64,000 nt of DNA, taken from positions 1,408,001 through 1,472,000 of the forward strand of contig OY760074.1 in NCBI GenBank assembly GCA_963663035.1. Reading direction: 5' to 3'. Origin of the DNA: Acidobacteriota bacterium. GTDB lineage: Bacteria; Acidobacteriota; UBA6911; RPQK01; JADFOI01. Position 1 is the first letter of the stretch. Each line of letters starts with the position of its first letter. Below are positions 1 to 11,568 of this stretch, piece by piece. Under the pieces are notes generated by a model. It ran no database searches. It saw nothing but the letters and a program-made list of their open reading frames with translations, and was not told where the DNA came from. The position numbers and the translations under genes are program-made.

Positions 1-1
1 G

Positions 2-2083
2 TATGTGGACGAGTATCAGGACGTCAATCCGGCGCAAACGGCCCTGATTAAAGCGATGGTTCCGCCCAACGGGAAACTGCGGGTTGTCGGGGACGACCTT
101 CAGAGCATCTACAACTGGCGAGGCAGCGACGTGACCAGGATTCTTGAATTCTCTAATGAGTTCGAGCCGGCCGAAGTGTTCCGTCTGTCCACGAATTACC
201 GATCGAGGCCTGAAGTGGTCACGGTTGCCAACGGCGTTGCGGAAGACATCGTTTTGAAGGACCCCCAGAAAGTGATGCAGCCCGGCCGAGAGAAGTGTGG
301 CCGAAAGGTTATTCACTGGCTTTCGACGAACAACGAGACGGATCAGGCGGAGACGATTGTTGAGATAGTTAAGCGGTTCCACAGCGCCGGTGTGCCGCAT
401 TCAAAGATCGCGATCTTGCTTCGTTCGGTTACCGGGGCAGGGAGGCCGATATACGAAGCCCTTAAGGCGGAGAGCATTCCCGTGGAATGTCCGATGCTCA
501 GTCGCGGCGGGGCTTTCATCAATACGTTTCTGCTCCCGGTTCTGAAGTGGCTGCGCACGGAACAGCTGGAGTCGAGAAACAGGCAGGAAGAGGAAGAGCA
601 AGAGGCAGACGCGCATTCGCTGTGGTTGTCGGTGGCTCCTTGGTTGTCGGTGGAAAACGCCGAGGACGTTTTTTGGAGTGGTCTGAATCACTGGTACGAC
701 CTCGTGCGGGGAGGCAAGAGCAGTGCATACAACGTAAGAAGCTGCCTTTACGATTTCCTGGACGAGTGTGGGGTCCGAGTAGCGCCCTCAGACACAGACC
801 TGATGGTCGGAATCGGCATAGCATCCCAGATCATTCGGAGGGTGGAAGAGATTCACCGAAGACGAATCAAAGGCCAAAACAGGCGTTCGGCTGCCGGGGT
901 TATCAGTGAGGTGTACTACGCGCTTATCCGCAATCAGGGAAACTTCGGTGAGAGCTTGCCGGTCAATCTAAAGGCCGAAGGGGTCGTTCTGACGACAGTG
1001 CATCAAGCCAAAGGCCTGGAGTGGCCGGTTGTATGCCTGCCGATGCTGAATAGAAGGCGCTTTCCGTTAGTAAACCGGCCAGCCAAAAGCAGCTTTCCAC
1101 CACTCATCTCCGACAGGTATGGGACCAAGTTGGACGATGAACGGCGCCTGTTCTACGTAGCGGTCACGAGAGCTCGTGAACGGCTTTTCATGCTGGATAC
1201 GGCGGCGGCGGACCCACGGGTAAGGTCGGCCTTCCTGACAGACCTAAAGCAGAGGGGAGTGCTCCCTCAAGAGGGTTTATCAGAACCGTCGGATTTAACT
1301 TGGTCGATTGCGGCGAAAGACTTGCGAAGCGACAGCCAGCCGCCAATCAGGGTGAGCCTTTCTGACCTCTTGCTGTACCTCGAATGCCCATATCAATTTG
1401 GCCTTCGCAGAGTCACCGGCCTCCAACCAGCAGTGGGCGATGAATTGGGTTTCGGGAAAGGACTCCATGAGCTGTTACAGCGGCGGGCGGAAAGCGATCA
1501 CGCATGGAACCAAGAGGAAGTGACGACCCAAGTAGAGAGCCACGTCCATCTGCCGCTGAGTTCGGATAAAGAAGAACAGCGCGCGAAACGTGCGATCGCT
1601 CAGAGGATTACCGAGCTTGACAAGCTCGGTGCATTCACGAGCGAACTCCGGCAGGAGCTGCCAGTGGAAGTATTCCTGAGTAGTGGCGTTGTGACTGGCG
1701 TCATCGACTTCGTCTATACGCAGCCGGATGGCTCCCTGGCCGTTCGCGATTGGAAAGCCAACGTCCATGACGAGTTCATCGCGCGATACGCCCGCCAACT
1801 GCAGGTCTATGTACACGCCTTGCGAATGCAGGGGCAGACTGTCAGCAGGGCAGAACTCGTTGACGTTGGCGCATCGATGAAAGCAAAGAAGCTCGTCACG
1901 ACCGCTGTTGATATTAGCGAAGCCACGATTTCCCGGTTGATGGAGGACTGCCAGCAAGCGTTGCAAGCAATACGGGAAGGCACGTTTAAGCCAAAACCTA
2001 GTGTCAGCGTATGTGGGAGTTGCGACGTGCGGCGGATATGCGCTGTGCGCGAGGGAGAAGAACGTGCGGAAACTGAAAACTAG
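2..2083 (+). CDS. UvrD/REP-family helicase fused to C-terminal RecB/Cas4-like PD-(D/E)XK nuclease (5'-partial)
   Basis: Helicase motifs VDEYQD, VGDDLQSIYNWRGS, LSTNYRS, TVHQAKGLEW, ERRLFYVAVTRA. Nuclease motifs VIDF..VRDWK..QLQVY with four Cys (LECPYQF ... CGSCDVRRIC). Frame is open at the window start. Confidence 0.93.
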   Translation, partial: YVDEYQDVNPAQTALIKAMVPPNGKLRVVGDDLQSIYNWRGSDVTRILEFSNEFEPAEVFRLSTNYRSRPEVVTVANGVAEDIVLKDPQKVMQPGREKCGRKVIHWLSTNNETDQAETIVEIVKRFHSAGVPHSKIAILLRSVTGAGRPIYEALKAESIPVECPMLSRGGAFINTFLLPVLKWLRTEQLESRNRQEEEEQEADAHSLWLSVAPWLSVENAEDVFWSGLNHWYDLVRGGKSSAYNVRSCLYDFLDECGVRVAPSDTDLMVGIGIASQIIRRVEEIHRRRIKGQNRRSAAGVISEVYYALIRNQGNFGESLPVNLKAEGVVLTTVHQAKGLEWPVVCLPMLNRRRFPLVNRPAKSSFPPLISDRYGTKLDDERRLFYVAVTRARERLFMLDTAAADPRVRSAFLTDLKQRGVLPQEGLSEPSDLTWSIAAKDLRSDSQPPIRVSLSDLLLYLECPYQFGLRRVTGLQPAVGDELGFGKGLHELLQRRAESDHAWNQEEVTTQVESHVHLPLSSDKEEQRAKRAIAQRITELDKLGAFTSELRQELPVEVFLSSGVVTGVIDFVYTQPDGSLAVRDWKANVHDEFIARYARQLQVYVHALRMQGQTVSRAELVDVGASMKAKKLVTTAVDISEATISRLMEDCQQALQAIREGTFKPKPSVSVCGSCDVRRICAVREGEERAETEN

Positions 2084-3359
2084 AGAGGATATCTGGGTTT
2101 TGACCCCGAGCGCTGATGACCTGAAGGCGGGAGCGTACTATGCCGCCGTCAGCCTTCCTTGGACATTCAACCGCATGATGCTCAACACGACTTCGGCCGG
2201 CCAACGGCATCGAGCCCTGAACATTGCGAAGGGCATCGTTGGGCAAGAAATACTCAAGCGCGAGATGGAACGGGTTGGAATAAAGGCTCAGATGCAGCGA
2301 AAAAGCTATCGCGATGAAGACCTGTTCGATTTTAACGTCGAAATCGGTGGCACTCTAACAAAGCTCGATTTGAAGAGCGTCAATTACTTTACGGACTACG
2401 CACCTATCGGACGCGAACCGTTTTCGGCAGATTTGCTCATGAAGTACACGGGATATGCTGACGCTGACTGGAGAACCTTCTTCCCGATGCTCGTGCCACA
2501 TACGCAAATCGAGCAGAGCAAGGAAGGTTACTGCTTCGCAATCGCGAGCAGTATCGACCTGAGAAAAGACATAGCGACCAAACGGACGGGCTACGCGCTG
2601 ACAGCGTTCCCTTATGGGGAACATCTAGGGTTTCTGAGTTCCAAGAAGCTCTGTCTGCTGCGGGAAGAAGCCAACAAGGGCTTCTACGTCGAATTCCTGT
2701 ACAAAGCGGACTCTCTTTTCGGCTCCGAAGTGACCCTGTCGGCGATAGGGGAGTGGGACGGTGAGCCTAGTATGATTGAGGTGAAGCTGCGTTCCGGCGT
2801 GGCAAAGCAAGTTGGGCCGTTCTCGTGCATCTCATCTTTCCAGGTGGACAAGGACAGCTATGACCAGCTTTCCGGATCGGTCGAAATATCGGTGAAGAAG
2901 AACGGCTTCAAGACGCCGGTTCTTAACACGCAAAAACGGAACACCAATAGGGTTCCCAAGGGATCTTTCAAGCTGGCGAGGCCCGACTTCTGCAATTTGT
3001 TCTTGCCGACGGACTACACGTTGTACGTGATCGGGTGGACGTACAAGGACGAGTTTCTTCAGGCATGCCGGCAGTACACGGGCTGGGTGTGGCCTAAGGA
3101 CAGCATCGACAAGTTCAAGAACCAAGCCTGGACCCAAATCACTGAGAAGGACCGGAAAAATCTAGGAAAAAAAGGGTTCGGGAGTTCTATACCAGACCCG
3201 CCGCGTATACTAAGAGCAGGGTGGCTCAAGACGACAGGCCATGGCGGAGGCGCCTGCTGCTACGTGTTTCCGAACATCGGAGCAAACGGAGGAGTGAAGG
3301 AGACAAATCTTTATATCCTGCCTCGGGATTTGTACACTATGGGCACCCTGGAACAGTAG
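2064..3359 (+). CDS. Hypothetical protein, putative PD-(D/E)XK restriction endonuclease
   Basis: GTG at 2064 after GAGGGAG RBS, overlapping the helicase 3' end. Motif GQE..LFDF..LDLKS and YVIGW..DEF. Sits directly upstream of a DNA methyltransferase. Confidence 0.6.
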   Translation: MRKLKTREDIWVLTPSADDLKAGAYYAAVSLPWTFNRMMLNTTSAGQRHRALNIAKGIVGQEILKREMERVGIKAQMQRKSYRDEDLFDFNVEIGGTLTKLDLKSVNYFTDYAPIGREPFSADLLMKYTGYADADWRTFFPMLVPHTQIEQSKEGYCFAIASSIDLRKDIATKRTGYALTAFPYGEHLGFLSSKKLCLLREEANKGFYVEFLYKADSLFGSEVTLSAIGEWDGEPSMIEVKLRSGVAKQVGPFSCISSFQVDKDSYDQLSGSVEISVKKNGFKTPVLNTQKRNTNRVPKGSFKLARPDFCNLFLPTDYTLYVIGWTYKDEFLQACRQYTGWVWPKDSIDKFKNQAWTQITEKDRKNLGKKGFGSSIPDPPRILRAGWLKTTGHGGGACCYVFPNIGANGGVKETNLYILPRDLYTMGTLEQ

Positions 3360-3372
3360 GGAACGGTTTTAG

Positions 3373-4905
3373 ATGAGCGGAAATATGGCAATTGGTAAAC
3401 AAGACAGGTTGACCTTCGACCCTTCCTCTGCCGCAAAGAGGCAGAAGGGCAATCGCGGCGGGCCACCGAATCGAATGAACGATTTGGTATACCGCGACTG
3501 GATGAAGTTCCAGAAGAGTTTCTTCCGGTTCGCATCAGATCAGGCGCTCATCGAAGAATGCGTGTACTTCTTCACGAAGGCGATCTGGGACGACGGAACC
3601 GCATCGCGGACCTTGATCGTGGGAGCAGAGGAGTTCTCCCAAGCGGCAATCCCCTCCCCTCGAGTCGTCACGCACGTCTGCGGGCACAAGTCGTTCGAGA
3701 CGGTTAACAACACCCTTTGCGGCCAGACCAGGAAGACCAGAGAGCACGACTTCGTGCTTGTGGACCTGCGCGCTCTCATCACAGAACAAGCCGAGCTGGA
3801 TGATTTCATCAACCGATACGCCGAGGGATTTTTCGAGGGTATCCGGGCGGCACTTAGAGATGATCGCTACTGCTGCGTGATGGTGGGACTTCCACAGACC
3901 GGTGGTGGTGGATTTCCGTTTCCGTGGGCAGTGGCCCTCGCGGCGCGCGCTCATCTGAGGCTGCGGGATGAGAAAATAGGCCTGATCGAGGACGAAGGGC
4001 GTGCATTCTACTGCCTGTTCATGCAAGCGAACGAGGATGGCCGGCCGCGAGAGAGTATGACCAAGAAAAGCTTCCATCTCTCGGATGCGGAGTTCTGCCG
4101 GGATGTACCTGCATGGATCATTCCAAGGCCTCCCCCTAGGAGGAAGAATGAAATTCTTCATCCTGCTAAGTTCCCGGAGACGTTAATCGAACAGCTTATT
4201 AAGATTCACTCTTCGGAGATGGATAACGTCTTCGACCCGATGGTGGGAACGGGTAGCACAGTGATTGCTGCGTTGCGGACGAAGAGAAACGGGTTCGGGA
4301 TCGATCTCTCAAAGGAATTCATCCAGACCGCGCAGGATCGAATAGCGCAAGAACAGGCACCATCGTTATTCCCCGGTGTTGAGCTAGAGGGGCGGGTTTT
4401 TGTTGGTGATGCCACTAGGCTCGATGAGATACACGAACTTGATGGGATTGAATTCCAGTACGCGGTGACGAGCCCGCCGTACTGGTCAATGCTGAAGAAT
4501 CCCGGCAGCGAGAATCAGAAGGCCAGGCGCAGCCGCAATCTTCCCCTGGTGTATTCCGATGATGTACAGGACTTGGGAAACATTGCCGACTACGACGAAT
4601 TTCTGAATGTCCTAGAGAGCATATACAACGATGTTGCCGTGCGACTAGCGGACGATGGAATGCTCACAGTTGTGGTGAAGAACGTAAAGCGGCATCATAC
4701 CCTCCATCCGCTGGCCTGGAATCTGACCAGCAGACTCTGCGGTCCGAAAGGTTCCTTCAATTACGTAGGTACAACGCTGTGGTGCCAAGACGATGTTGGA
4801 ATCAAACCTTTTGCAGTCGGAATCCTCTGGGTGAGCAACATCCTGCATACGTACTGCCTGCATTTTCAAAAACGGAAAGTCCCCGAAGAACCGCGCAAGA
4901 ACTGA
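3373..4905 (+). CDS. Amino-DNA methyltransferase (N4C/N6A) with degenerate N-terminal duplicate domain
   Basis: HPAKFP, VFDPMVGTGST (motif I) and VTSPPYW (motif IV) lie in the C-terminal half. The N-terminal half aligns by eye to the C-terminal half but lacks these motifs. Confidence 0.9.
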   Translation: MSGNMAIGKQDRLTFDPSSAAKRQKGNRGGPPNRMNDLVYRDWMKFQKSFFRFASDQALIEECVYFFTKAIWDDGTASRTLIVGAEEFSQAAIPSPRVVTHVCGHKSFETVNNTLCGQTRKTREHDFVLVDLRALITEQAELDDFINRYAEGFFEGIRAALRDDRYCCVMVGLPQTGGGGFPFPWAVALAARAHLRLRDEKIGLIEDEGRAFYCLFMQANEDGRPRESMTKKSFHLSDAEFCRDVPAWIIPRPPPRRKNEILHPAKFPETLIEQLIKIHSSEMDNVFDPMVGTGSTVIAALRTKRNGFGIDLSKEFIQTAQDRIAQEQAPSLFPGVELEGRVFVGDATRLDEIHELDGIEFQYAVTSPPYWSMLKNPGSENQKARRSRNLPLVYSDDVQDLGNIADYDEFLNVLESIYNDVAVRLADDGMLTVVVKNVKRHHTLHPLAWNLTSRLCGPKGSFNYVGTTLWCQDDVGIKPFAVGILWVSNILHTYCLHFQKRKVPEEPRKN

Positions 4906-5036
4906 GCAGGTCAGAACATGGGAGTTCGCTTCCTCGCAGTCGTTCCAAAGCGTCTGTAAGGGCTCGGAGACAAACGAAGGGTTGGAGTCTGATAAGGCGC
5001 TGCAAGAGAGCTGTGGCTGACAGTTGGTGACTGGCG

Positions 5037-6773
5037 TCACGTCAGCAGCGTCGTGATCTCGGATTTGAGACTTTCCCTCCTCGCCGAGTGAAAGGATTTG
5101 AACTCTAAAAGGTCGTCGGGCACATTGCCGAGCAGGTGCAGATTCAGGTACTCGGTCCGTTTCTCATCGGACTCGAAAGTGGAGAGCCATTCGGTCGGCA
5201 GTTTCGAGCGCTTCTCCTGGTTTTCGACACCCGCCAGGAGCTGGAGGTTCGGCAGGCTGTTCATCATCTCACGTAGGTCCGCTACCTCCTCTTCCGAGAA
5301 ACCTTTCGACTTCAACAGCGCCGCCGCGAATTGAGATTTGGGGAAGAAGTGGTCCACGTGAAAGTGATGCCTAAGATCGAGGTGTCTGAATATCAGCGAC
5401 AGTAGACAGAACGTACGTTTGTCCCCGTAGCGCATGTCGGTCAATTCGTCGATTTCCTCGCTGTTGAACACGAGGGACTTGCCGCGCGTGCTCATTGCTT
5501 TGCGCAATTCTTCAACCGGAAATCCGTTACCTTGATTGTCCTTTATTACTTGCCGGAGTAACGTTAGGAATGAGTCTAGCCCGCTTCCCCAGATACCTGA
5601 CTTCAGTAGACCAGAAACCAGCCACTTCCGAATTATCTCTCTGTCGGCGTTGGACTGCGCCTGGGTTAAATATCCGTCTTCCGCCCCAGTTCCATAAAAG
5701 TAGTAGGCTATTGGCAAGAGGGCGCTGTCTGTCCTGAGGGTTTCCGACTTGAAGCCGAAGTTCGAAGCCAGATGGACTGTAAGCGTCAGCGACCGTTTGA
5801 TTTTTTCCCACTTGCTCTCCAGTATCTCCATATTCTTTCGGTTGAAATTCTCCACTTTGAAACCAACGCTGCCAATGTCGCTGAGCATCAGACCGGCCTT
5901 GAGTACCCAATCCTTGGAAAATTCGAACCCGTTGCCGATCTTGTTGATATCGTCGACTAGCTGGTGAATCACCTCGCGGGCGTCGTACTTCGACCACTGG
6001 GCCACGGCGACGGATAGCAGCAGATCGGAGTAGGACAGAACGGTTCCTCCGCTGTTTGTCCGAATGAATATCTGAAGGACCTCCTCCAGTTCTTGGCTAG
6101 CCTCTTCGTAGAAGCACACCAGTAATCTCTCTCGAATGACAGTGTACAATTGGTGAAGCACCTTGTGGGCCTCCGCAACGGGGCGGTTGGGTAGTCGGTT
6201 CTCAAGCCACTCAGTCATGGCTGGTCCGCTGTCGGCCAGTTTCAAGATGTCCTTGACCTCAAACCAGCACGACGCACTGTTATCGACTTCCTCTCGAGTA
6301 CGAAAATCAAACCGATATTGAACGCCGACGTCGTCATCGTCATCGGGGGTCCAAAGCAGGTCGATGTAGAGGTGCTTTTGTGGGTATGCGTCGGGGTTGG
6401 TGCGCCGCTTCCAAGGGAGTTTCTTCGCCATCGAGCCGCGAGGACCGATGTTGAACGCGGTTAGGCGCTGCTGACCGTCGAGGACGGCGATCACATCCCG
6501 ATTCGGCATCTCGCCCAAGCGGTGGCAATGTGGATCATCTCTTTCGTGATACTCGCGGACAAAGTCGTAGAACTGGTAGCGGGTGTTGTGCTCCTGGCTA
6601 ACCTTCCAGTAAAGGAAGGTGCCGAAGGGGTAGCCTCGCATGAGGCTGTCAAACAGAGTGCAGATTTGCGCTGGCTCCCATACAAACTCGCGCTGGATGG
6701 CCGGCAGCACGAGTTGATGGCATTCGATTTGGTGGAGTGTCTGCTCGATCGTTACAGCCGTCTGGTACATCAC
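5037..6773 (-). CDS. DUF262-DUF1524 (GmrSD-like, type IV modification-dependent nuclease)
   Basis: LPAIQREFVW, LDGQQRLT, FIRTNSGG (DUF262); VDHFFP..NSLPNLQLL..N (HNH/DUF1524). Confidence 0.9.
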   Translation of the reverse strand: MMYQTAVTIEQTLHQIECHQLVLPAIQREFVWEPAQICTLFDSLMRGYPFGTFLYWKVSQEHNTRYQFYDFVREYHERDDPHCHRLGEMPNRDVIAVLDGQQRLTAFNIGPRGSMAKKLPWKRRTNPDAYPQKHLYIDLLWTPDDDDDVGVQYRFDFRTREEVDNSASCWFEVKDILKLADSGPAMTEWLENRLPNRPVAEAHKVLHQLYTVIRERLLVCFYEEASQELEEVLQIFIRTNSGGTVLSYSDLLLSVAVAQWSKYDAREVIHQLVDDINKIGNGFEFSKDWVLKAGLMLSDIGSVGFKVENFNRKNMEILESKWEKIKRSLTLTVHLASNFGFKSETLRTDSALLPIAYYFYGTGAEDGYLTQAQSNADREIIRKWLVSGLLKSGIWGSGLDSFLTLLRQVIKDNQGNGFPVEELRKAMSTRGKSLVFNSEEIDELTDMRYGDKRTFCLLSLIFRHLDLRHHFHVDHFFPKSQFAAALLKSKGFSEEEVADLREMMNSLPNLQLLAGVENQEKRSKLPTEWLSTFESDEKRTEYLNLHLLGNVPDDLLEFKSFHSARRESLKSEITTLLT

Positions 6774-6961: not shown

Positions 6962-7327
6962 TCATGTGACGATGTCTTCGTAGGTCTTTTTTTGTTCTGT
7001 AGTTCCCTCTTTCTCGATCAAAGCCAGTACCGCACGTTCAAAGGTCGTATGGTCATACACGTCAAGGTGCGCGCCCATTTCTTGGAAAAGCTCGCGCATT
7101 GCAGGCCTGACCTTTAAGCCGAGTTGCATTGTATACGGCGATTTCTTACGGCGGCGGAGTGTTTTCCGGACGTTTTCCCTGCTCGGAAATCCAGACTGTT
7201 CCGCAACTCTTTGGAGGGTTTCAGGGTCTACGACATTTTTCCCCTTCCGGCTCTTCCCTGCTAATTCTTCAATATCCACGGTTTCACTATCACTAGTAAA
7301 GTCTAATGCGGCCCGTTGCTTGCCCAT
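6962..7327 (-). CDS. Small partition/stability partner of the upstream ParA
   Basis: 121 aa, 2 nt downstream of a ParA fragment; AEQSGFPSRE segment and basic C-terminal DNA-binding-like half. Confidence 0.55.
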   Translation of the reverse strand: MGKQRAALDFTSDSETVDIEELAGKSRKGKNVVDPETLQRVAEQSGFPSRENVRKTLRRRKKSPYTMQLGLKVRPAMRELFQEMGAHLDVYDHTTFERAVLALIEKEGTTEQKKTYEDIVT

Positions 7328-7329
7328 GG

Positions 7330-7642
7330 CTAGCGCTCCTTATCTTCAGCGTGTTGTGATGCTTTGATTTTCCGCAAAACTTCGTCGGTATAGGCTTCTG
7401 CATTCGCTATCGCGTTATCGACGCCAGAGACTTGGGACGGGTTCAGATCGTGCAACACGCCACCAAATGAGCGCATAGCCCGGAAGGCTTCACGGTCAAT
7501 CAATGAAATCTTAAAGAGATCAACTCCCGCCCCTTCAAACTGCTCGACAATATGGCGCAGGGTCCGCGGCTGTATTGCTGGACTCGTCCGCGTAAAGAGC
7601 ACAGAGAAAGGAATAACGCGCTTTAGAAGCTTCGATTGGTTC
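7330..7642 (-). pseudogene. ParA/VirC1-like ATPase C-terminal fragment, truncated by IS5
   Basis: VLFTRTSPAI..LIDREAFRAMRSFGG..NAIANA resembles a ParA C-terminus; frame runs up to the IS end. Confidence 0.7.
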
Positions 7643-8746
7643 AGCGTTGTTGCATGGATCGGGGCGGAGATGGAATTCGCCCTTTCCCAAGCGGTAGCGT
7701 CAGGCGCTGCGTTGGAACACAGGCCGCCCGAGTGCGGTCATTGTGTTCAGAACTTTCTGGCCGACCTGGATCTCCGTGATTTGCCTGGAGAAGCTGCGAG
7801 ATTTGAGCTTGGGGCCGATCGCGCTCTTCCAACGACCGATCTGCGTTTCTATCCGGCTGCGTTGGTTGTACCCTGTGGCCACTTGCCAGGCCATGCGGCC
7901 GTTGCTGCGGATCTGGGCAATATGGCGATCCCGAACGGTTGGATTCCGCGCCGATTGCGGTCGGATCACTGCGTTTTTCGGCGGCGGTATAACCACATCC
8001 AGGGTCTCCCCATACCTCTGCCTCAGCATATCCCGTATAGACGCTCCATCATAGGCGCCGTCAGCCAGAAAGCCCGTGACAGGAGCATCGAGTTGATCCA
8101 GGAGCCCGGGTAAGGCGGTGCTGTCTCCAACCTCATCGTGAGTCAGATCGGCGCAAACAATCGCACCGCTGGCCAGGTCCAGTCCGAGGTGGAGTTTGCG
8201 CCAGCGGCGGCGTATTCCCTTGATTTTATGCTTCTGGGCGAGCCATTCCCCCTCGCCGAAGATCTTGAGGCCGGTACTGTCCACCACCAGATGGACAGCC
8301 ACAGACCCGGCTTGCCTCATCGCCTGAGCGATGTTCAAGCCGTTTGCGCGACGCGACAGTGTGGAGTAATCCGGCACCCGTATATCCAGCCCCATGAGCG
8401 TGCCGATGGAGCCCATAAGTCCCTGCGTTTGCCGCAACGCAAGCCGATACGTCGTGCGCAGCGTCAGGCAGGTCTCGATCGCCAAATCCGAGTGTCTCCA
8501 CTGGCCACCCCGTGACGTGCGCCGCGCCGCGCTCCACACACTTTGCGCCTCCTCACTGACCCAGATCGTCAGATCGCCCCGCTGGCGCAGGCTCTCGTTA
8601 TATTCCGCCCAGTCGATCACCCGATACTGCGCCTTATCGAACTTGTGCCGTCGGGATGCGTTGAACTTATGTGGCATCTAAGTTATCCCCAGTGTTGAAA
8701 AACACCATGATTAGACATCCTTCGGGATGATCCATGCAACAAGGTC
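7643..8746 (-). mobile_element. IS5-family (IS903-like) insertion sequence
   Basis: Terminal inverted repeats agcgttgttgcatggatc / gatccatgcaacaaggtc; no target duplication visible. Confidence 0.88.
7700..8677 (-). CDS. IS5-family DDE transposase
   Basis: WAEYNESLRQRG, VVDSTGLK, WRKLHL, ADGAYD, RSRIET motifs. Confidence 0.95.
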   Translation of the reverse strand: MPHKFNASRRHKFDKAQYRVIDWAEYNESLRQRGDLTIWVSEEAQSVWSAARRTSRGGQWRHSDLAIETCLTLRTTYRLALRQTQGLMGSIGTLMGLDIRVPDYSTLSRRANGLNIAQAMRQAGSVAVHLVVDSTGLKIFGEGEWLAQKHKIKGIRRRWRKLHLGLDLASGAIVCADLTHDEVGDSTALPGLLDQLDAPVTGFLADGAYDGASIRDMLRQRYGETLDVVIPPPKNAVIRPQSARNPTVRDRHIAQIRSNGRMAWQVATGYNQRSRIETQIGRWKSAIGPKLKSRSFSRQITEIQVGQKVLNTMTALGRPVFQRSA

Positions 8747-8922: not shown

Positions 8923-9156
8923 TCAGGAGTGGTGTTCCTTGTAGTACTCCCAGACTTTTAGAAATAAGTGGCTGGAATGGAGATTCCGGGCTGCGGCGTA
9001 GGCCTTAAACTCGCACTTGGCTGCGGGAGGTATTCGCACCTGAAAAGGCACATTCTCCCCTGTCACGGGGCGCAGAAGATTGTCAGGCGTCGCGGCAGGT
9101 ATGGGAGGAGCTCCTTTGGGATTTGGCTTTTGGAGTGCGGCGTTGATTTTGGTCAT
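8923..9156 (-). CDS. Small ParG-like (ribbon-helix-helix) partition protein
   Basis: 77 aa, start overlaps parA stop (TAATG); flexible N-terminus then VPFQVRIP..KCEFKAYAA..LFLKVWEYY. Confidence 0.7.
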   Translation of the reverse strand: MTKINAALQKPNPKGAPPIPAATPDNLLRPVTGENVPFQVRIPPAAKCEFKAYAAARNLHSSHLFLKVWEYYKEHHS

Positions 9157-9812
9157 TAGGAGGCCTTTCTGTTAGTGATCTTGGTTATGGCGTCGATGAT
9201 GCTCTGTGCGGTGGTGTCGGCACGGCGGTTGAGGGTCTGGTAGTTGGTTTCGGTGGCGGTGCGGCCTGCATCGCTTGCACGCCGGTAGGCGATGCGCTCC
9301 GGTACCTCACCCGCTATCATTTGGTATCCTGCCGCTTTGATGTATTCCTTTGCGTGCTGTATCTCGATCTTGCTGTCGCCAACACGCCAAAGGACAAAGG
9401 CGAGCCGTTCCGGATCTACGCCGTGCTGGTGACTCAGTTCGTGGGCAAGGCCCACTTGCGGGTGAAGATCGTCAACGGCAAGGCCCGTGGGGAGTATCAC
9501 GAAATCGGATGCGCGGGCCATGTCGCGGGTAGCCCTACTGGCATGGGGGGCACCGTCAAAAATAAACAGGTCGAACTTATCCGCAGCGGTCAAAGCGGTG
9601 CTGACACTCGTGAAGGTTTCGGTGTGAATTTCCGGCATGACTTGGTTTGCAGCTCGGCGCTTGAACCAGTGGTAGCTGGTGGCCTGCTGCACATCCATAT
9701 CAGCGATGTTGACGAGCCATCCGTTGTCAGCGAACTCGCGGGCGATCAGGCGGGCGATGCTACTTTTCCCAACACCGCCTTTTTGTGAGACGACGGCTAC
9801 TTTGATTGCCAT
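9156..9812 (-). CDS. parA: ParA-family (type Ib) partition ATPase
   Basis: Deviant Walker A QKGGVGKSS, DMDVQQ, FIFDGAP; 218 aa with no N-terminal HTH. Confidence 0.92.
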   Translation of the reverse strand: MAIKVAVVSQKGGVGKSSIARLIAREFADNGWLVNIADMDVQQATSYHWFKRRAANQVMPEIHTETFTSVSTALTAADKFDLFIFDGAPHASRATRDMARASDFVILPTGLAVDDLHPQVGLAHELSHQHGVDPERLAFVLWRVGDSKIEIQHAKEYIKAAGYQMIAGEVPERIAYRRASDAGRTATETNYQTLNRRADTTAQSIIDAITKITNRKAS

Positions 9813-9862
9813 GGATGAAAGGATGAGGTTTGGGCAGAGCCAGTTCGGGCTTTGGGTAGCCT

Positions 9863-9902
9863 AGCATGTTCGCATGCACGCATAGATGCATGATAGCATG
9901 CA
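9863..9902. repeat. 5 x 8-bp tandem repeat (xGCATGxx), candidate centromere/operator
   Basis: agcatgtt cgcatgca cgcataga tgcatgat agcatgca, ~50 bp upstream of parA. Confidence 0.7.
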
Positions 9903-10025
9903 CGGAGAAAGGGGTCAACGATTGGGATTCGGTGGGTGAGGTGTGTGTCTTTTGAGTAGGATGCTACATGGTTGTAGAGGCAGGGCTGACTAAGCTTATG
10001 AAGATCATCGGCACCTCCTCGATAA

Positions 10026-10301
<276 letters not shown>

Positions 10302-11568
10302 TGACCTGCCCCCACGAACGAGTCCACCCTCTATGCTAGACCCGGGACCATTTGAAGTCCACTCCAAGGGATTGGATCCAGTGCCTGCGACCTAGGTAGT
10401 TTGGCCTCTGGCGCCGGCGGCCGATAGGCCAAGGCGCTGTGAGGCCGGATCTGATTGTAATCCCTCCGCCAGCGTTCTACCAACACCTTGGCTTCCCCCA
10501 GCGTGTCGAAGATCTCCATGTTCAGCAGCTCATCCCGTAGTTTCCCGTTGAAACTCTCAATGTACCCATTCTCCCAGGGGCTGCCCGGCTCGATGTACAA
10601 GGTCCTTACCCCAACAGCCTGCAGCCAGTCCCGGACCGCCTGTGCCGTAAACTCCGATCCGTTATCGGACCGGATAAACTCAGGCACTCCCCGATCAACG
10701 AATAACTCCGCCAGCCGGTCCAACACGTCTTGGTGATTCATCTGCCGTTTCACATCAATGGCGAGGCACTCTCTGGTGTACTCATCCAGGATCGTCAATA
10801 GCCGAAAGGCTCGCCCATCATGGGTCCGTTCATGCACGAAATCATAGCTCCAGACGTGGTTCTTGCGAGCCGCTCGTAACCGAACACAGGAACCGTCATT
10901 AAGCCACAGCCTCCTTCGTTTCGGCTGTCTGGACGGGACTTTCAGCCCTTCTTGTCTCCACAGCCTCTCCATCCGCTTAGGATTCCCCTTCCACCCTTCC
11001 CCATGAAGTATCGCCGTGACCCGCCGGTAGCCATAACGCCCGTATTGCGTAGCCAACTCCACCATCCGGGCCACCAATCGGGCCTCATCATCGGGAATTT
11101 GCCTTTCCCTTCGCTGGGTCGATCGAACCTGTCCCAGCACTTGGCAGGCCCGACGTTCGGAGACTCGCTCTGCTCCTAATCGCTCTCGTACCCACATCAC
11201 CGCTCGTCTCCTGTTCGCCGGGCCTAGAAGTTTCCCGAGGACACTTCCTTCAGGATCTGCTTGTCCAAAGACAGATCCGCCACCAGCTTCTTCAACCGGG
11301 TATTCTCCTTCTCCAACACCTTCAACCTCTTGGCCTGGTCCAACCGGAGCCCTCCGTACTCTTTGCGCCACCGGTAGTAGGTCTGCTCGCTCACCCCCAT
11401 CTGCTTCGACACCTGTCCCACCCTCTGTCCTTGGGCCAGACCCACCTCTGCCTCACGCAGCTTCATGATGATCTGTTCTGCCCTAAACCGCTTCCCTGCC
11501 ATCCTTGCCTCCTTCCTAAACCGGAAATCCTAACATTCAAACTGGACTCGTTTTAGGGGGCAAGGTCA
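10302..11568 (-). mobile_element. IS3-family (IS407-like) element, copy 1, 1267 bp
   Basis: TGACC..GGTCA inverted ends; orfA 11224-11502 and orfB (rve, [17 protein letters not shown]) with GGGAAAC slippery site; no TSD. Confidence 0.95.
10331..11502 (-). CDS. IS3 transposase OrfAB (-1 programmed frameshift)
   Basis: OrfA HTH plus overlapping OrfB integrase core; G GGA AAC near the orfA end. Confidence 0.9.

What the first reader, a model, noticed from the sequence alone, without database searches (positions are those of the whole stretch)
2..4905. Candidate undescribed defence operon: helicase-Fe-S nuclease + orphan PD-(D/E)XK protein + two-domain DNA methyltransferase
Seen: three tightly coupled genes (20-nt overlap, then 13-nt gap) encoding a UvrD helicase with an AddB/Cas4-type four-Cys nuclease, a 431-aa protein with a nuclease-like signature, and an SPPY methyltransferase. 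A GmrSD-like gene and plasmid relics lie next to them. Known: type I/III R-M use SF2 motors, Gabija pairs UvrD with an OLD nuclease, and AdnAB uses two helicase-nuclease subunits; none matches this trio. Inference: an R-M-like system in which site-specific cutting is followed by processive SF1 helicase-nuclease degradation. Further upstream genes may lie outside the window.
Basis: partly seen in the sequence, partly recalled or inferred. Interest (0 to 1): 0.85.

Follow-up and report, generated by a model that had tools for sequence, protein, structure and literature searches.

The report
Restriction-modification operon with built-in helicase-nuclease
A mobile four-gene restriction-modification cassette in which a classical controller protein governs a UvrD-type helicase-nuclease, an uncharacterised nuclease and a DNA methyltransferase; the same three enzymes travel together in very distant bacteria and an archaeon, so the helicase-nuclease is probably part of the restriction machinery.

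Summary
The helicase-nuclease is 907 aa, not the 693 aa visible. In front of it lie a 72-aa C (controller) protein and a near-perfect PvuII/AhdI-type C-box.

The helicase-nuclease, the 431-aa protein and the N6_N4 methyltransferase lie together in all 12 loci where the 431-aa protein has readable flanks. These loci span eight bacterial phyla and a Haloferax plasmid. Their helicases form one clade.

A 5.84-kb stretch running from just upstream of the C-box to the methyltransferase stop is 92.7% identical to DNA in a Bryobacterales genome, which defines the mobile unit. Here it sits, with a BrxU orthologue, between two inverted IS5 copies.

The 431-aa protein has no Pfam, NCBIfam, PADLOC or PHROGs match. 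It keeps an invariant D...D-x-K motif, and its model weakly resembles PD-(D/E)XK restriction enzymes.

The helicase belongs to the "UvrD-Cas4" fusion family, described in 2017 as a predicted accessory of Type III R-M systems. The helicase-nuclease family is therefore known. This Type II-like, C-controlled trio is not named in any library or paper I searched.

Verdict: a real new variant of restriction-modification. The mechanism (site cutting followed by ATP-driven unwinding and degradation) is inferred, not shown.

The parts
1..2083 (+). In-window part (last 693 codons) of the 907-aa SF1 UvrD-type helicase fused to a RecB/Cas4-type PD-(D/E)XK nuclease with four Cys (the 'UvrD-Cas4' family). 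The gene starts 640 nt upstream of the window, at G000:C1:1407360.
1..4916 (+). In-window part of the 5.84-kb mobile C-H-R-M unit (G000:C1:1407081-1412916). Three parts lie upstream of the window and cannot be given window coordinates. (1) C-box operator TACTtaaAGTC-CGTG-GACTttaAGTC at C1:1407091-1407116. (2) The 72-aa C (controller) protein gene at C1:1407141-1407359 (+), whose stop abuts the helicase ATG. (3) Further left, the left IS5 copy at C1:1405846-1406950 (+).
   Evidence: Unit boundaries: blastn of L003 3081-8916 against L004 5008-10847, 92.7% over 5840 nt. C-box: 15 of 16 positions match the consensus (consensus from PMC2175313). C protein: HTH_3 at E 1.4e-15 with a DRTY helix, 97% identical in L004. 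Left IS5.
2064..3359 (+). ORF2, 431 aa. Orphan family, predicted PD-(D/E)XK endonuclease with a beta-sandwich insert at about residues 169-290.
   Evidence: No family match. Invariant D86, D102, K104. AF2 model pLDDT 86. Best structural rows are restriction enzymes and Hjc, Z up to 5.0.
3373..4905 (+). DNA methyltransferase, 510 aa. The N-terminal domain (about 30-220) is a pseudo-methyltransferase. The core (about 236-510) is a circularly permuted N6_N4 domain with motif I (DPMVGTGST) before motif IV (SPPY).
5037..6773 (-). BrxU orthologue (GmrSD-type, Type IV restriction of modified DNA). Convergent with the operon; not part of the C-H-R-M unit.
   Evidence: PADLOC HEC-05 at E 1.8e-215. PDB 7P9K at E 2.3e-178 over the full length. 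HEC-05 is equated with BrxU in bioRxiv 10.1101/2024.01.29.577857. Absent from L004.
6962..7602 (-). Two small ORFs (121 and 90 aa) of unknown function inside the IS5-bounded segment
   Evidence: No Pfam, PADLOC or NCBIfam match. The only PHROGs hit is a ParA-like family at E 0.009 for the 90-aa ORF.
7642..8746 (-). Right IS5-family copy, inverted relative to the left one (which lies upstream of the window); transposase at 7700-8677 (-)

Best explanation
This is a horizontally mobile, C-protein-controlled restriction-modification system. Its restriction side has two proteins instead of one.

Proposed roles:
- The methyltransferase marks host DNA. Its active domain is a permuted N6_N4 core with an SPPY motif.
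- ORF2 is a PD-(D/E)XK endonuclease, probably dimeric. It cuts or nicks unmethylated target DNA.
- The UvrD-type SF1 helicase, with its Fe-S RecB/Cas4-type nuclease, loads at that break and uses ATP to unwind and degrade the foreign DNA. It is translationally coupled to ORF2.
- The C protein binds its C-box and delays or limits expression of the toxic helicase and nuclease genes when the cassette enters a new cell.

Shown here: the domains and catalytic motifs, the C-box/C-protein match, strict co-inheritance of the three genes, and the boundaries of the mobile unit.

Inferred, not shown: that ORF2 is the site-specific cutter, that ORF2 and the helicase act together or bind each other, the order of events, and the defence phenotype.
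For: (a) Gene linkage. ORF2 homologues were found in 8 genome-contig loci from 7 other phyla. All 8 have the helicase-nuclease directly upstream and the methyltransferase downstream, in the same order. A Haloferax plasmid has the order M-H-R at 31-40% identity. Metagenome loci L016 and L017 also carry all three genes; in L014 the contig ends 64 aa into ORF2.

(b) The identities of the three proteins rise and fall together across loci.

(c) On a helicase tree of 38 rows, the 12 trio helicases are one side of a branch with SH-aLRT 100. By contrast, the 26 other rows of the tree, like the 75 metagenome loci with other helicases, have no ORF2 beside them.

(d) The C-box matches the consensus at 15 of 16 positions. 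It has a CGTG spacer, and the C protein has a DRTY helix. This is the pairing described for the C.AhdI-type subgroup.

(e) DNA identity with L004 begins 10 nt before the C-box and ends 11 nt after the methyltransferase stop.

(f) ORF2 keeps D86...D102-x-K104 in all 39 aligned homologues, and also in paralogues only 20% identical. The top structural rows are DpnI, I-Ssp6803I, Hjc, NhoI, MspI, SwaI and PvuII.

(g) Some lineages carry two ORF2-type genes: L006 has two full paralogues, and L005 and L007 have a short one. This fits a dimeric nuclease.

(h) All helicase and nuclease motifs and the four Cys are invariant.

(i) The wider UvrD-Cas4 family sits beside R-M systems: 14 of 23 scanned loci have an N6_N4 methyltransferase neighbour, and 8 of those 23 also have a ResIII neighbour (PMC5704561).
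Against: - There is no experiment and no methylome.
- The structural matches of ORF2 are weak (Z 5.0 or less; Foldseek found nothing at E <= 0.001). Its nuclease fold therefore rests mainly on the motif.
- The methyltransferase lies last in the same operon behind the C-controlled genes. No separate promoter was found, so how methylation gets ahead of restriction is unexplained.
- C control is seen only in the window and L004.
- The host already has an AddAB-like pair, so a dedicated degrading enzyme is not obviously needed.
- UvrD-type motors move on single strands. This differs from the double-strand translocases of all characterised ATP-dependent restriction enzymes, so the analogy with CglI or Type III may fail.
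- ORF2 and the methyltransferase are unusually conserved for specificity-bearing proteins: mean column identity is 61-62% across phyla.
Confidence: 0.6

Rival explanations
1. Two independent defence genes happen to be neighbours. ORF2 plus the methyltransferase is an ordinary Type II R-M pair that works alone. The UvrD-Cas4 helicase-nuclease is a self-sufficient or generic accessory gene that merely hitch-hikes beside it, as its relatives do beside Type III, BREX and other systems.
For: Relatives of the helicase occur beside many different systems: Type III Mod/Res, BREX PglZ/BrxL, EcoRII and MmeI-like genes. The 2017 survey found the gene stand-alone or in non-conserved contexts too (PMC5704561).
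Against: No ORF2 was found without the helicase: 12 of 12 assessable loci have it. The helicase lies between the C gene and ORF2 and overlaps ORF2. The trio helicases form their own clade. The H-R adjacency survives the gene-order change in Haloferax.
Confidence: 0.15
2. This is a Type III-like holoenzyme. The methyltransferase is a single-chain pseudo-dimer and supplies all sequence recognition. ORF2 and the helicase-nuclease together replace the Res subunit and have no specificity of their own.
For: The methyltransferase has a second, degenerate methyltransferase-like domain. The helicase family is typically found with Type III Mod genes (PMC5704561). ORF2 is highly conserved, with no obviously variable recognition region. 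The three genes are tightly packed.
Against: There is no ResIII/SF2 motor in the cassette. The Haloferax methyltransferase lacks the extra domain. ORF2 has a separate beta-sandwich domain that could read DNA. C-box control is characteristic of Type II systems, according to the passages of PMC2175313 read.
Confidence: 0.17
3. The module is not restriction at all. It is a methylation-linked repair or maintenance module, analogous to Dcm-Vsr with a helicase, in which ORF2 nicks damaged or mismatched methylated sites and the helicase-nuclease excises the strand.
For: The second conserved context reported for UvrD-Cas4 is Dcm plus the Vsr nuclease (PMC5704561).
Against: A C protein with a C-box implies a product that is toxic on entry into a naive cell (PMC2175313). 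The distribution is patchy and mobile: 1 of 401 genomes of the window's own phylum hold ORF2, and the locus is flanked by IS copies and sits beside BrxU. The 2017 authors themselves read the Dcm-Vsr context as defence.
Confidence: 0.05

Closest known systems
UvrD-Cas4 fusion helicase-nucleases (Hudaiberdiev et al. 2017, PMC5704561; passages read)
   Same: Same architecture: an SF1 UvrD helicase with a C-terminal PDDEXK_1/Cas4-like nuclease and four Cys. Same association with methyltransferase-containing defence loci. The 2017 authors predicted an ancillary role in unwinding and cleaving DNA.
   Different: The contexts described there are Type III Mod/Res and Dcm/Vsr. Here the partners are an orphan 431-aa nuclease and a permuted two-domain N6_N4 methyltransferase. 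Linkage is strict, the genes overlap, and in this lineage a C protein controls them. The trio helicases form a separate clade.
CglI / NgoAVII ATP-dependent restriction systems (PMC4267653 and PMC5861437; abstracts seen in the search listing)
   Same: A three-gene R-M system: a methyltransferase, a site-recognising nuclease (R), and a helicase-like NTPase (H/N) required for cleavage.
   Different: Their H subunit is an SF2 DEAD-Z1 double-strand translocase with no nuclease of its own. Here the motor is an SF1 UvrD helicase carrying its own Fe-S nuclease. The R proteins are unrelated: from recall, R.CglI/R.NgoAVII use a PLD-type nuclease, whereas ORF2 has a PD-(D/E)XK motif.
C-protein-controlled Type II R-M systems of the PvuII/AhdI group (PMC2175313; passages read)
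   Same: A small HTH C protein with a DRTY recognition helix. The C-box follows GACT-N3-AGTC-CGTG-GACT-N3-AGTC just upstream of the C gene. The C gene is co-oriented with, and abuts, the restriction gene(s).
   Different: The C gene is followed by a 907-aa helicase-nuclease before the putative endonuclease. The methyltransferase lies downstream in the same orientation rather than on its own mapped promoter.
AddAB / AdnAB / RecBCD end-processing helicase-nucleases
   Same: A UvrD-like SF1 motor joined to a RecB-family nuclease. The four-Cys cluster is as in AddB. The nearest solved relatives are PcrA/UvrD (E about 1e-37) and AdnB.
   Different: It is a single chain with no partner subunit, and it is encoded on a mobile R-M cassette. 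The host has its own AddAB-like pair elsewhere.
Gabija (GajA OLD nuclease + GajB UvrD helicase)
   Same: The helicase core matches PADLOC GajB models, best E 8.6e-35.
   Different: There is no OLD/TOPRIM GajA and no methyltransferase in Gabija. The GajB matches cover only the helicase core, while here the nuclease is fused to the helicase.

Membership tests
C-protein-controlled R-M (PvuII/AhdI-type) | Small HTH C protein with a DR(T/S)Y or HRTY recognition helix | tested here: met
   72 aa, HTH_3 at E 1.4e-15, sequence ...GLDRTYIGG.... Helix classes are from PMC2175313.
C-protein-controlled R-M (PvuII/AhdI-type) | C-box GACT-N3-AGTC-N4-GACT-N3-AGTC upstream of the C gene, with a CGTG spacer for the DR(T/S)Y class | tested here: met
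   TACTtaaAGTC-CGTG-GACTttaAGTC matches 15 of 16 positions and ends 24 nt before the C start. There are 0 matches with 2 or fewer mismatches in the 64-kb window and 4 in 871,790 nt of other loci.
C-protein-controlled R-M (PvuII/AhdI-type) | Active DNA methyltransferase and a cognate endonuclease | tested here: inconclusive
   The methyltransferase motifs are present and invariant. The endonuclease is assigned only from the D...DxK motif and weak fold matches.
UvrD-Cas4 fusion family | UvrD SF1 helicase fused to a C-terminal pfam12705 nuclease with 4 conserved Cys | tested here: met
UvrD-Cas4 fusion family | Neighbourhood of Type III Mod/Res or Dcm/Vsr | tested here: not met
   The cassette contains no ResIII, Dcm or Vsr. 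Distant relatives do have Mod/Res neighbours.
CglI/NgoAVII-type ATP-dependent restriction | SF2 DEAD-Z1 helicase-like H subunit | tested here: not met
   The motor is SF1 UvrD/PcrA-like.
Type III R-M | Res subunit with an SF2 (ResIII) motor plus nuclease, and a Mod subunit | tested here: not met
   No ResIII match in any cassette protein.
Gabija | GajA OLD-family ATPase-TOPRIM nuclease next to GajB | tested here: not met
   Only the helicase hits GajB models. ORF2 and the other tested cassette proteins gave no GajA hit; the C protein and the 5' third of the helicase were not run against PADLOC.
Hma (PADLOC) | Helicase + m5C methyltransferase + ATPase | tested here: not met
   The methyltransferase is N6_N4 class and there is no separate ATPase. 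Definition from PMC8565338.
AddAB/AdnAB | Two-subunit helicase-nuclease encoded by adjacent genes | tested here: not met
   The cassette has a single helicase-nuclease. The host's two-gene pair is at C1:2.5389-2.5434 Mb.
BrxU / GmrSD (the neighbouring gene only) | Full-length similarity to BrxU, DUF262 + DUF1524 | tested here: met
   PDB 7P9K at E 2.3e-178, residues 2-577. GmrSD_N and GmrSD_C domains. PADLOC HEC-05.

The most novel reading that the evidence does not exclude
The trio is a distinct, so far unnamed class of restriction enzyme. An SF1 (single-strand) helicase fused to an Fe-S RecB/Cas4 nuclease is an obligatory subunit. It forms a complex with an orphan PD-(D/E)XK endonuclease, so that recognition of an unmethylated site is coupled directly to ATP-driven unwinding and shredding of the invader. 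In effect this is restriction with its own built-in RecBCD. By extension, the whole UvrD-Cas4 family would play this role for Type III, BREX and other methylation-based systems.
Probability: 0.35. Interest if true: 0.75.

Novelty: new variant of a known kind. Interest (0 to 1): 0.6.

Why it matters
All characterised ATP-dependent restriction enzymes use SF2 double-strand translocases: Type I, III, ISP, CglI and SauUSI. A restriction system built round an SF1 helicase-nuclease would be a mechanistically new way of turning site recognition into destruction of foreign DNA.

It would also give the first testable function to the widespread UvrD-Cas4 family. Since 2017 that family has been only a computational prediction.

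The cassette is small (5.84 kb) and self-contained. It has its own regulator and clear catalytic residues to mutate, so the question can be tested directly.

The methyltransferase is a neat natural example of a circularly permuted core joined to a degenerate second copy.

If the helicase turns out to be dispensable, the result is an ordinary Type II system with a new endonuclease family.

Tried and rejected
- **Complex prediction (helicase 339-907 with ORF2).** The queue was full, and then the tool was declared unavailable. Nothing was folded, so binding between the helicase and ORF2 is untested.
- **Foldseek of the ORF2 model against PDB.** No match at E <= 0.001.
- **ORF2 profile against PDB sequences.** Nothing meaningful.
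- **ESM Atlas.** Only unnamed clusters.
- **ORF2 against phage records.** No match.
- **Promoter scan.** The sigma-70-type scan found no + strand promoter in the cassette. It found 1 site in all, fewer than in shuffles, so no separate methyltransferase promoter was identified.
- **Target-site duplications.** None were evident by eye at the IS5 ends. 'Composite transposon' is therefore a structural description only.
- **N-terminal versus C-terminal halves of the methyltransferase.** hhalign gave only Prob 20%. The duplication idea rests on the fold.
- **Reads.** All four runs are contigs. The metatranscriptome run X20 holds short contigs over parts of the C gene, the helicase, the ORF2/methyltransferase junction (L003 7235-7683) and the methyltransferase. 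DNA carry-over cannot be excluded, so this is at most a weak hint of transcription. Runs X14 and X19 showed no cover over most of the BrxU gene, which proves nothing.
- **Considered and rejected as identities:** Hma, Gabija, Type III, AddAB/AdnAB and CglI-type membership (see the membership tests).
- **Literature.** Searches for a prior description of this trio found only the 2017 Cas4 paper, and that concerns the helicase family. Figures and additional files of that paper were not seen and could show such a locus.
- **First hand-in of this report.** It was returned because parts upstream of the window cannot carry window coordinates. They are now given as genome coordinates in the text of the parts.


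Full report
**What is there**

The window begins inside a gene. I placed the window in its genome (G000:C1:1408001-1472000) and read upstream. The first frame is a complete 907-aa protein that starts 640 nt upstream of the window and ends at window 2083.

It has a full UvrD/PcrA-type SF1 helicase and a C-terminal PDDEXK_1 nuclease (Pfam UvrD-helicase 4e-38, UvrD_C 5e-28, PDDEXK_1 3e-26, weak Cas4). NCBIfam gives only sub-threshold matches to PcrA, UvrD, Rep, AddA and RecB.

In an alignment of nine orthologues the following are invariant: the Walker A residues G36-T40 (GSGKT; printed context AGAGSGKT), DEYQD, the nuclease residues D783, D797-W-K799, Q813 and Y817, and four cysteines (C676, C885, C888, C894). 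The nearest solved relatives are PcrA/UvrD (E about 1e-37) and mycobacterial AdnB.

ORF2 starts at the GTG at 2064 (431 aa). It has a GGGAG 8 nt upstream and overlaps the helicase stop by 20 nt. The methyltransferase starts 13 nt after the ORF2 stop.

The helicase ATG is directly preceded by the stop codon of a 72-aa helix-turn-helix protein (HTH_3, E 1.4e-15).

Twenty-four nucleotides upstream of that gene lies TACTtaaAGTC-CGTG-GACTttaAGTC. Mruk et al. (PMC2175313, passages read) give the operator of PvuII-type controller proteins as GACT-N3-AGTC-N4-GACT-N3-AGTC. They state that the central spacer is predominantly CGTG for C proteins whose recognition helix reads DR(T/S)Y, and they quote the C.AhdI site as GTACT-N3-AGTCC-GT-GGACT-N3.

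The site here matches 15 of 16 specified positions, has the CGTG spacer, and the protein reads ...GLDRTYIGG.... The same pattern with two or fewer mismatches occurs 0 times in the 64-kb window and 4 times in 871,790 nt of other fetched loci.

This is a genuine C protein with its C-box. It is a regulatory device that I know only from restriction-modification systems, where it delays expression of a toxic endonuclease.

**The unit and its mobility**

blastn against the closest relative, a Bryobacterales MAG (L004), gives one block of 5840 nt at 92.7% identity. It runs from 10 nt before the C-box to 11 nt after the methyltransferase stop (L003 3081-8916). The mobile unit is therefore exactly C-box, C, helicase-nuclease, ORF2 and methyltransferase.

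In the window's genome this unit lies between two inverted copies of an IS5-family element (1118 nt, 98%). The same segment also holds a convergent gene and two small unknown ORFs. The genome has four full copies of the IS. I saw no target-site duplication.

The convergent gene is a full-length orthologue of BrxU (PDB 7P9K, E 2.3e-178; PADLOC HEC-05, E 1.8e-215). BrxU is a GmrSD-type enzyme that attacks modified DNA (bioRxiv 10.1101/2024.01.29.577857, passages read). It is absent from L004 and is not part of the unit.

ORF2 was found in 1 of 401 genomes sampled from the window's own phylum, namely only itself. This fits recent horizontal acquisition.

**Are the three genes a unit?**

- ORF2 as query found 8 loci in one-genome-per-species contigs: Acidobacteriota, Bacillota (two), Planctomycetota, Chloroflexota, Bacteroidota, Eisenbacteria and Actinomycetota. 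All 8 have the helicase-nuclease directly upstream and the methyltransferase downstream.
- The identities of the three proteins co-vary. For example, L004 gives 92/87/88% and L011 gives 37/44/41% for helicase/ORF2/methyltransferase.
- The single plasmid hit, Haloferax lucentense pSVX82-3, has the order methyltransferase-helicase-ORF2 at 40/33/31% identity.
- In the reverse direction, a metagenome scan with the helicase alignment kept 80 loci. The five best helicases are L014-L018. L016 and L017 carry ORF2 and the methyltransferase. L014 ends 64 aa into ORF2. L015 and L018 end inside the helicase. None of the other 75 loci holds ORF2 at HMM E <= 1e-3.
- I built a quick maximum-likelihood tree of 38 helicases. 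These were 10 from genomes and the plasmid, plus the 28 metagenome rows matched end to end by a single HMM domain; the others were left out. The 12 trio helicases form one side of a branch with SH-aLRT 100. The tool flags the Haloferax row as a long branch.
- The helicase stop overlaps or abuts the ORF2 start in nearly all bacterial loci.

**ORF2**

ORF2 has no Pfam, NCBIfam, PADLOC or PHROGs match. It has 227 homologues at 90% clustering, all 'hypothetical' except one UniProt entry called 'Restriction endonuclease'. Among 1.84 billion 50%-identity representatives there are only 91 hits, none longer than 457 aa, so there are no fused forms.

The family is strongly conserved (mean column identity 62%). 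D86, D102 and K104 form a D...D-x-K pattern. They are invariant in 39 homologues, and also in the Haloferax protein and in paralogues only about 20% identical.

The AlphaFold model is confident (pLDDT 86, pTM 0.87). Foldseek finds nothing. The exhaustive aligner gives only weak scores, but its top rows are DpnI (Z 5.0), I-Ssp6803I, Hjc, NhoI, D212 and MspI, with SwaI (rank 18) and PvuII (rank 34) further down. These are all PD-(D/E)XK nucleases. They align to the N- and C-terminal parts, while residues about 169-290 match beta-sandwich modules. By the tool's own guidance, Z under 8 is not proof.

Several lineages carry two ORF2-type genes. There are two full paralogues in the Phycisphaerales locus. 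In the two Bacillota loci there is a 303/307-aa short paralogue between ORF2 and the methyltransferase (hhalign Prob 59%, E 9e-5; motif conserved). This is what one expects of a nuclease that works as a homo- or heterodimer.

**The methyltransferase**

The Pfam match covers only residues 245-321, the motif X/I end of the profile. Against the solved beta-class enzyme TTHA0409 (2zie), query 262-328 aligns to chain 215-281 and query 394-439 aligns to chain 56-101. The core (about 236-510) is therefore circularly permuted relative to the beta class, with motif I (DPMVGTGST) before motif IV (SPPY).

The Haloferax enzyme (294 aa) corresponds to this core only.

Residues about 30-220 are confidently modelled as a second alpha/beta domain. 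The best structural matches of the whole model are RsmC, RlmG and phosphoethanolamine methyltransferases (E down to 2.6e-11). From recall, these are proteins with two tandem methyltransferase folds. The N-terminal domain lacks the cofactor and catalytic motifs and resembles the catalytic half only faintly in sequence (Prob 20%).

'Two-domain methyltransferase' is therefore confirmed. I read the N-terminal domain as a degenerate second copy, possibly standing in for the second protomer of the dimer that beta-class enzymes form. That last point is inference from recalled knowledge.

SPPY is, from recall, more typical of N4-cytosine than of N6-adenine enzymes. The nearest solved sequences include both kinds, so the modified base is open.

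**Prior knowledge**

PADLOC-DB v2.0.0 has no model for ORF2. The helicase hits only generic GajB-type and other UvrD models.

The system is not Hma (m5C methyltransferase plus ATPase; PMC8565338). It is also not Gabija, Type III or AddAB (see the membership tests).

The helicase-nuclease family itself, however, is in print. Hudaiberdiev et al. 2017 (PMC5704561, passages read) describe a monophyletic 'UvrD-Cas4' fusion. Its commonest neighbourhood is Type III Mod/Res and its second is Dcm/Vsr. They propose that it plays an ancillary role in several defence systems.

My metagenome loci agree. I Pfam-scanned neighbours in 23 loci with more distant full-length relatives. Of these, 14 have an N6_N4 methyltransferase beside the helicase, and 8 of those 14 also have a ResIII protein. 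Others sit beside PglZ/BrxL, EcoRII, an MmeI-like enzyme or NurA/HerA.

'UvrD-Cas4' occurs in no other paper of the library. Two further searches for the trio found nothing. I did not see that paper's figures or additional files.

The closest functional precedent is CglI/NgoAVII, which comprises a methyltransferase, an R protein and an SF2 helicase-like H/N protein needed for cleavage (abstracts).

**Most likely mechanism**

I propose that the methyltransferase protects host sites and that dimeric ORF2 recognises and cuts or nicks unmethylated sites. The helicase-nuclease, made in step with ORF2 through the overlapping genes, would enter at the break and unwind and degrade the DNA with ATP. 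This would be a dedicated counterpart of what RecBCD/AddAB do to restricted DNA. The C protein would hold back the helicase and ORF2 until methylation is established.

Points against this mechanism or left open:
- The methyltransferase lies last in the same transcription direction and no separate promoter was found.
- C control is limited to the window and L004.
- The host has its own AddAB-like pair.
- UvrD-type motors act on single strands, unlike every characterised restriction motor.
- A metatranscriptome run holds short contigs over parts of all four genes, including the ORF2/methyltransferase junction. These are contigs from an RNA library and do not prove transcription.

**Verdict**

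The feature is real and well delimited. It is a new variant of restriction-modification: a Type II-like, C-controlled system with an integral UvrD-Cas4 helicase-nuclease and a new endonuclease family. It remains unnamed, uncharacterised and easy to test.

Noticed in passing
G000:C1:1405846-1416746 (window up to 8746, and 2154 nt upstream of the window): The C-H-R-M cassette (aimed at unmodified DNA) and a BrxU orthologue (aimed at modified DNA) sit together between two inverted IS5 copies that are 98% identical. This looks like a composite-transposon-like mini defence island with complementary targets. No target-site duplication was seen. IS5-like remnants 87-89% identical also lie about 5 kb from the cassette in L004.
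   Followed up: partly
metagenome loci L019-L093 (for example L059, L089, L021, L052, L032, L064, L055, L025, L046, L026, L022, L043): More distant full-length UvrD-Cas4 helicase-nucleases (25-36% identity) lie beside Type III Mod+Res pairs in 8 of 23 scanned loci, and beside other N6_N4 methyltransferases in 6 more. Single cases lie beside BREX PglZ/BrxL, EcoRII, an MmeI-like enzyme and NurA/HerA. The Type III link is in print (PMC5704561). The other contexts were not in the passages I read.
   Followed up: partly
L006 7950-9305 and 11969-13297; L005 9311-10222; L007 9310-10233: Some versions of the system carry two ORF2-type genes. The Phycisphaerales locus has two full-length paralogues flanking the helicase. 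The two Bacillota loci have a 303/307-aa short paralogue that keeps the D...DxK motif. This suggests heterodimeric nucleases.
   Followed up: partly
window 3373-4905: The methyltransferase is a circularly permuted N6_N4 core preceded by a degenerate second methyltransferase-like domain. The archaeal version lacks the extra domain. It looks like a duplication intermediate, or a single-chain pseudo-dimer.
   Followed up: partly
G000:C1:2538917-2543382: The host's own AddB/AddA-like pair: two adjacent open frames of 1069 and 1209 aa with PDDEXK_1 and RecB-like matches. The cassette helicase-nuclease is therefore an extra copy, not the housekeeping enzyme.
   Followed up: no
window 9156-11502: The region holds a ParA-like ATPase (9156-9812, -), an unknown 176-aa ORF (9797-10327, -) and an IS3-type transposase (10331-11371, -) with a possible upstream orfA.
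   Followed up: no
L011 2080-5157; L004 11761-14580: Other defence-like genes lie next to the trio elsewhere. In the Nanopelagicaceae locus a 1025-aa SF1 helicase (AAA_11/AAA_12) fused to a PLD nuclease sits directly upstream. In the Bryobacterales locus a second UvrD-like 939-aa protein lies downstream.
   Followed up: no
L003 2800-11700 (runs X1-X20): Near-identical copies of the cassette are held by runs of 7 studies, including sponge metagenomes. Clusters at 90% identity hold 13-32 members for the C protein, helicase and methyltransferase, and several appear to share contigs (matching contig lengths). The cassette appears to circulate widely in one habitat type.
   Followed up: no
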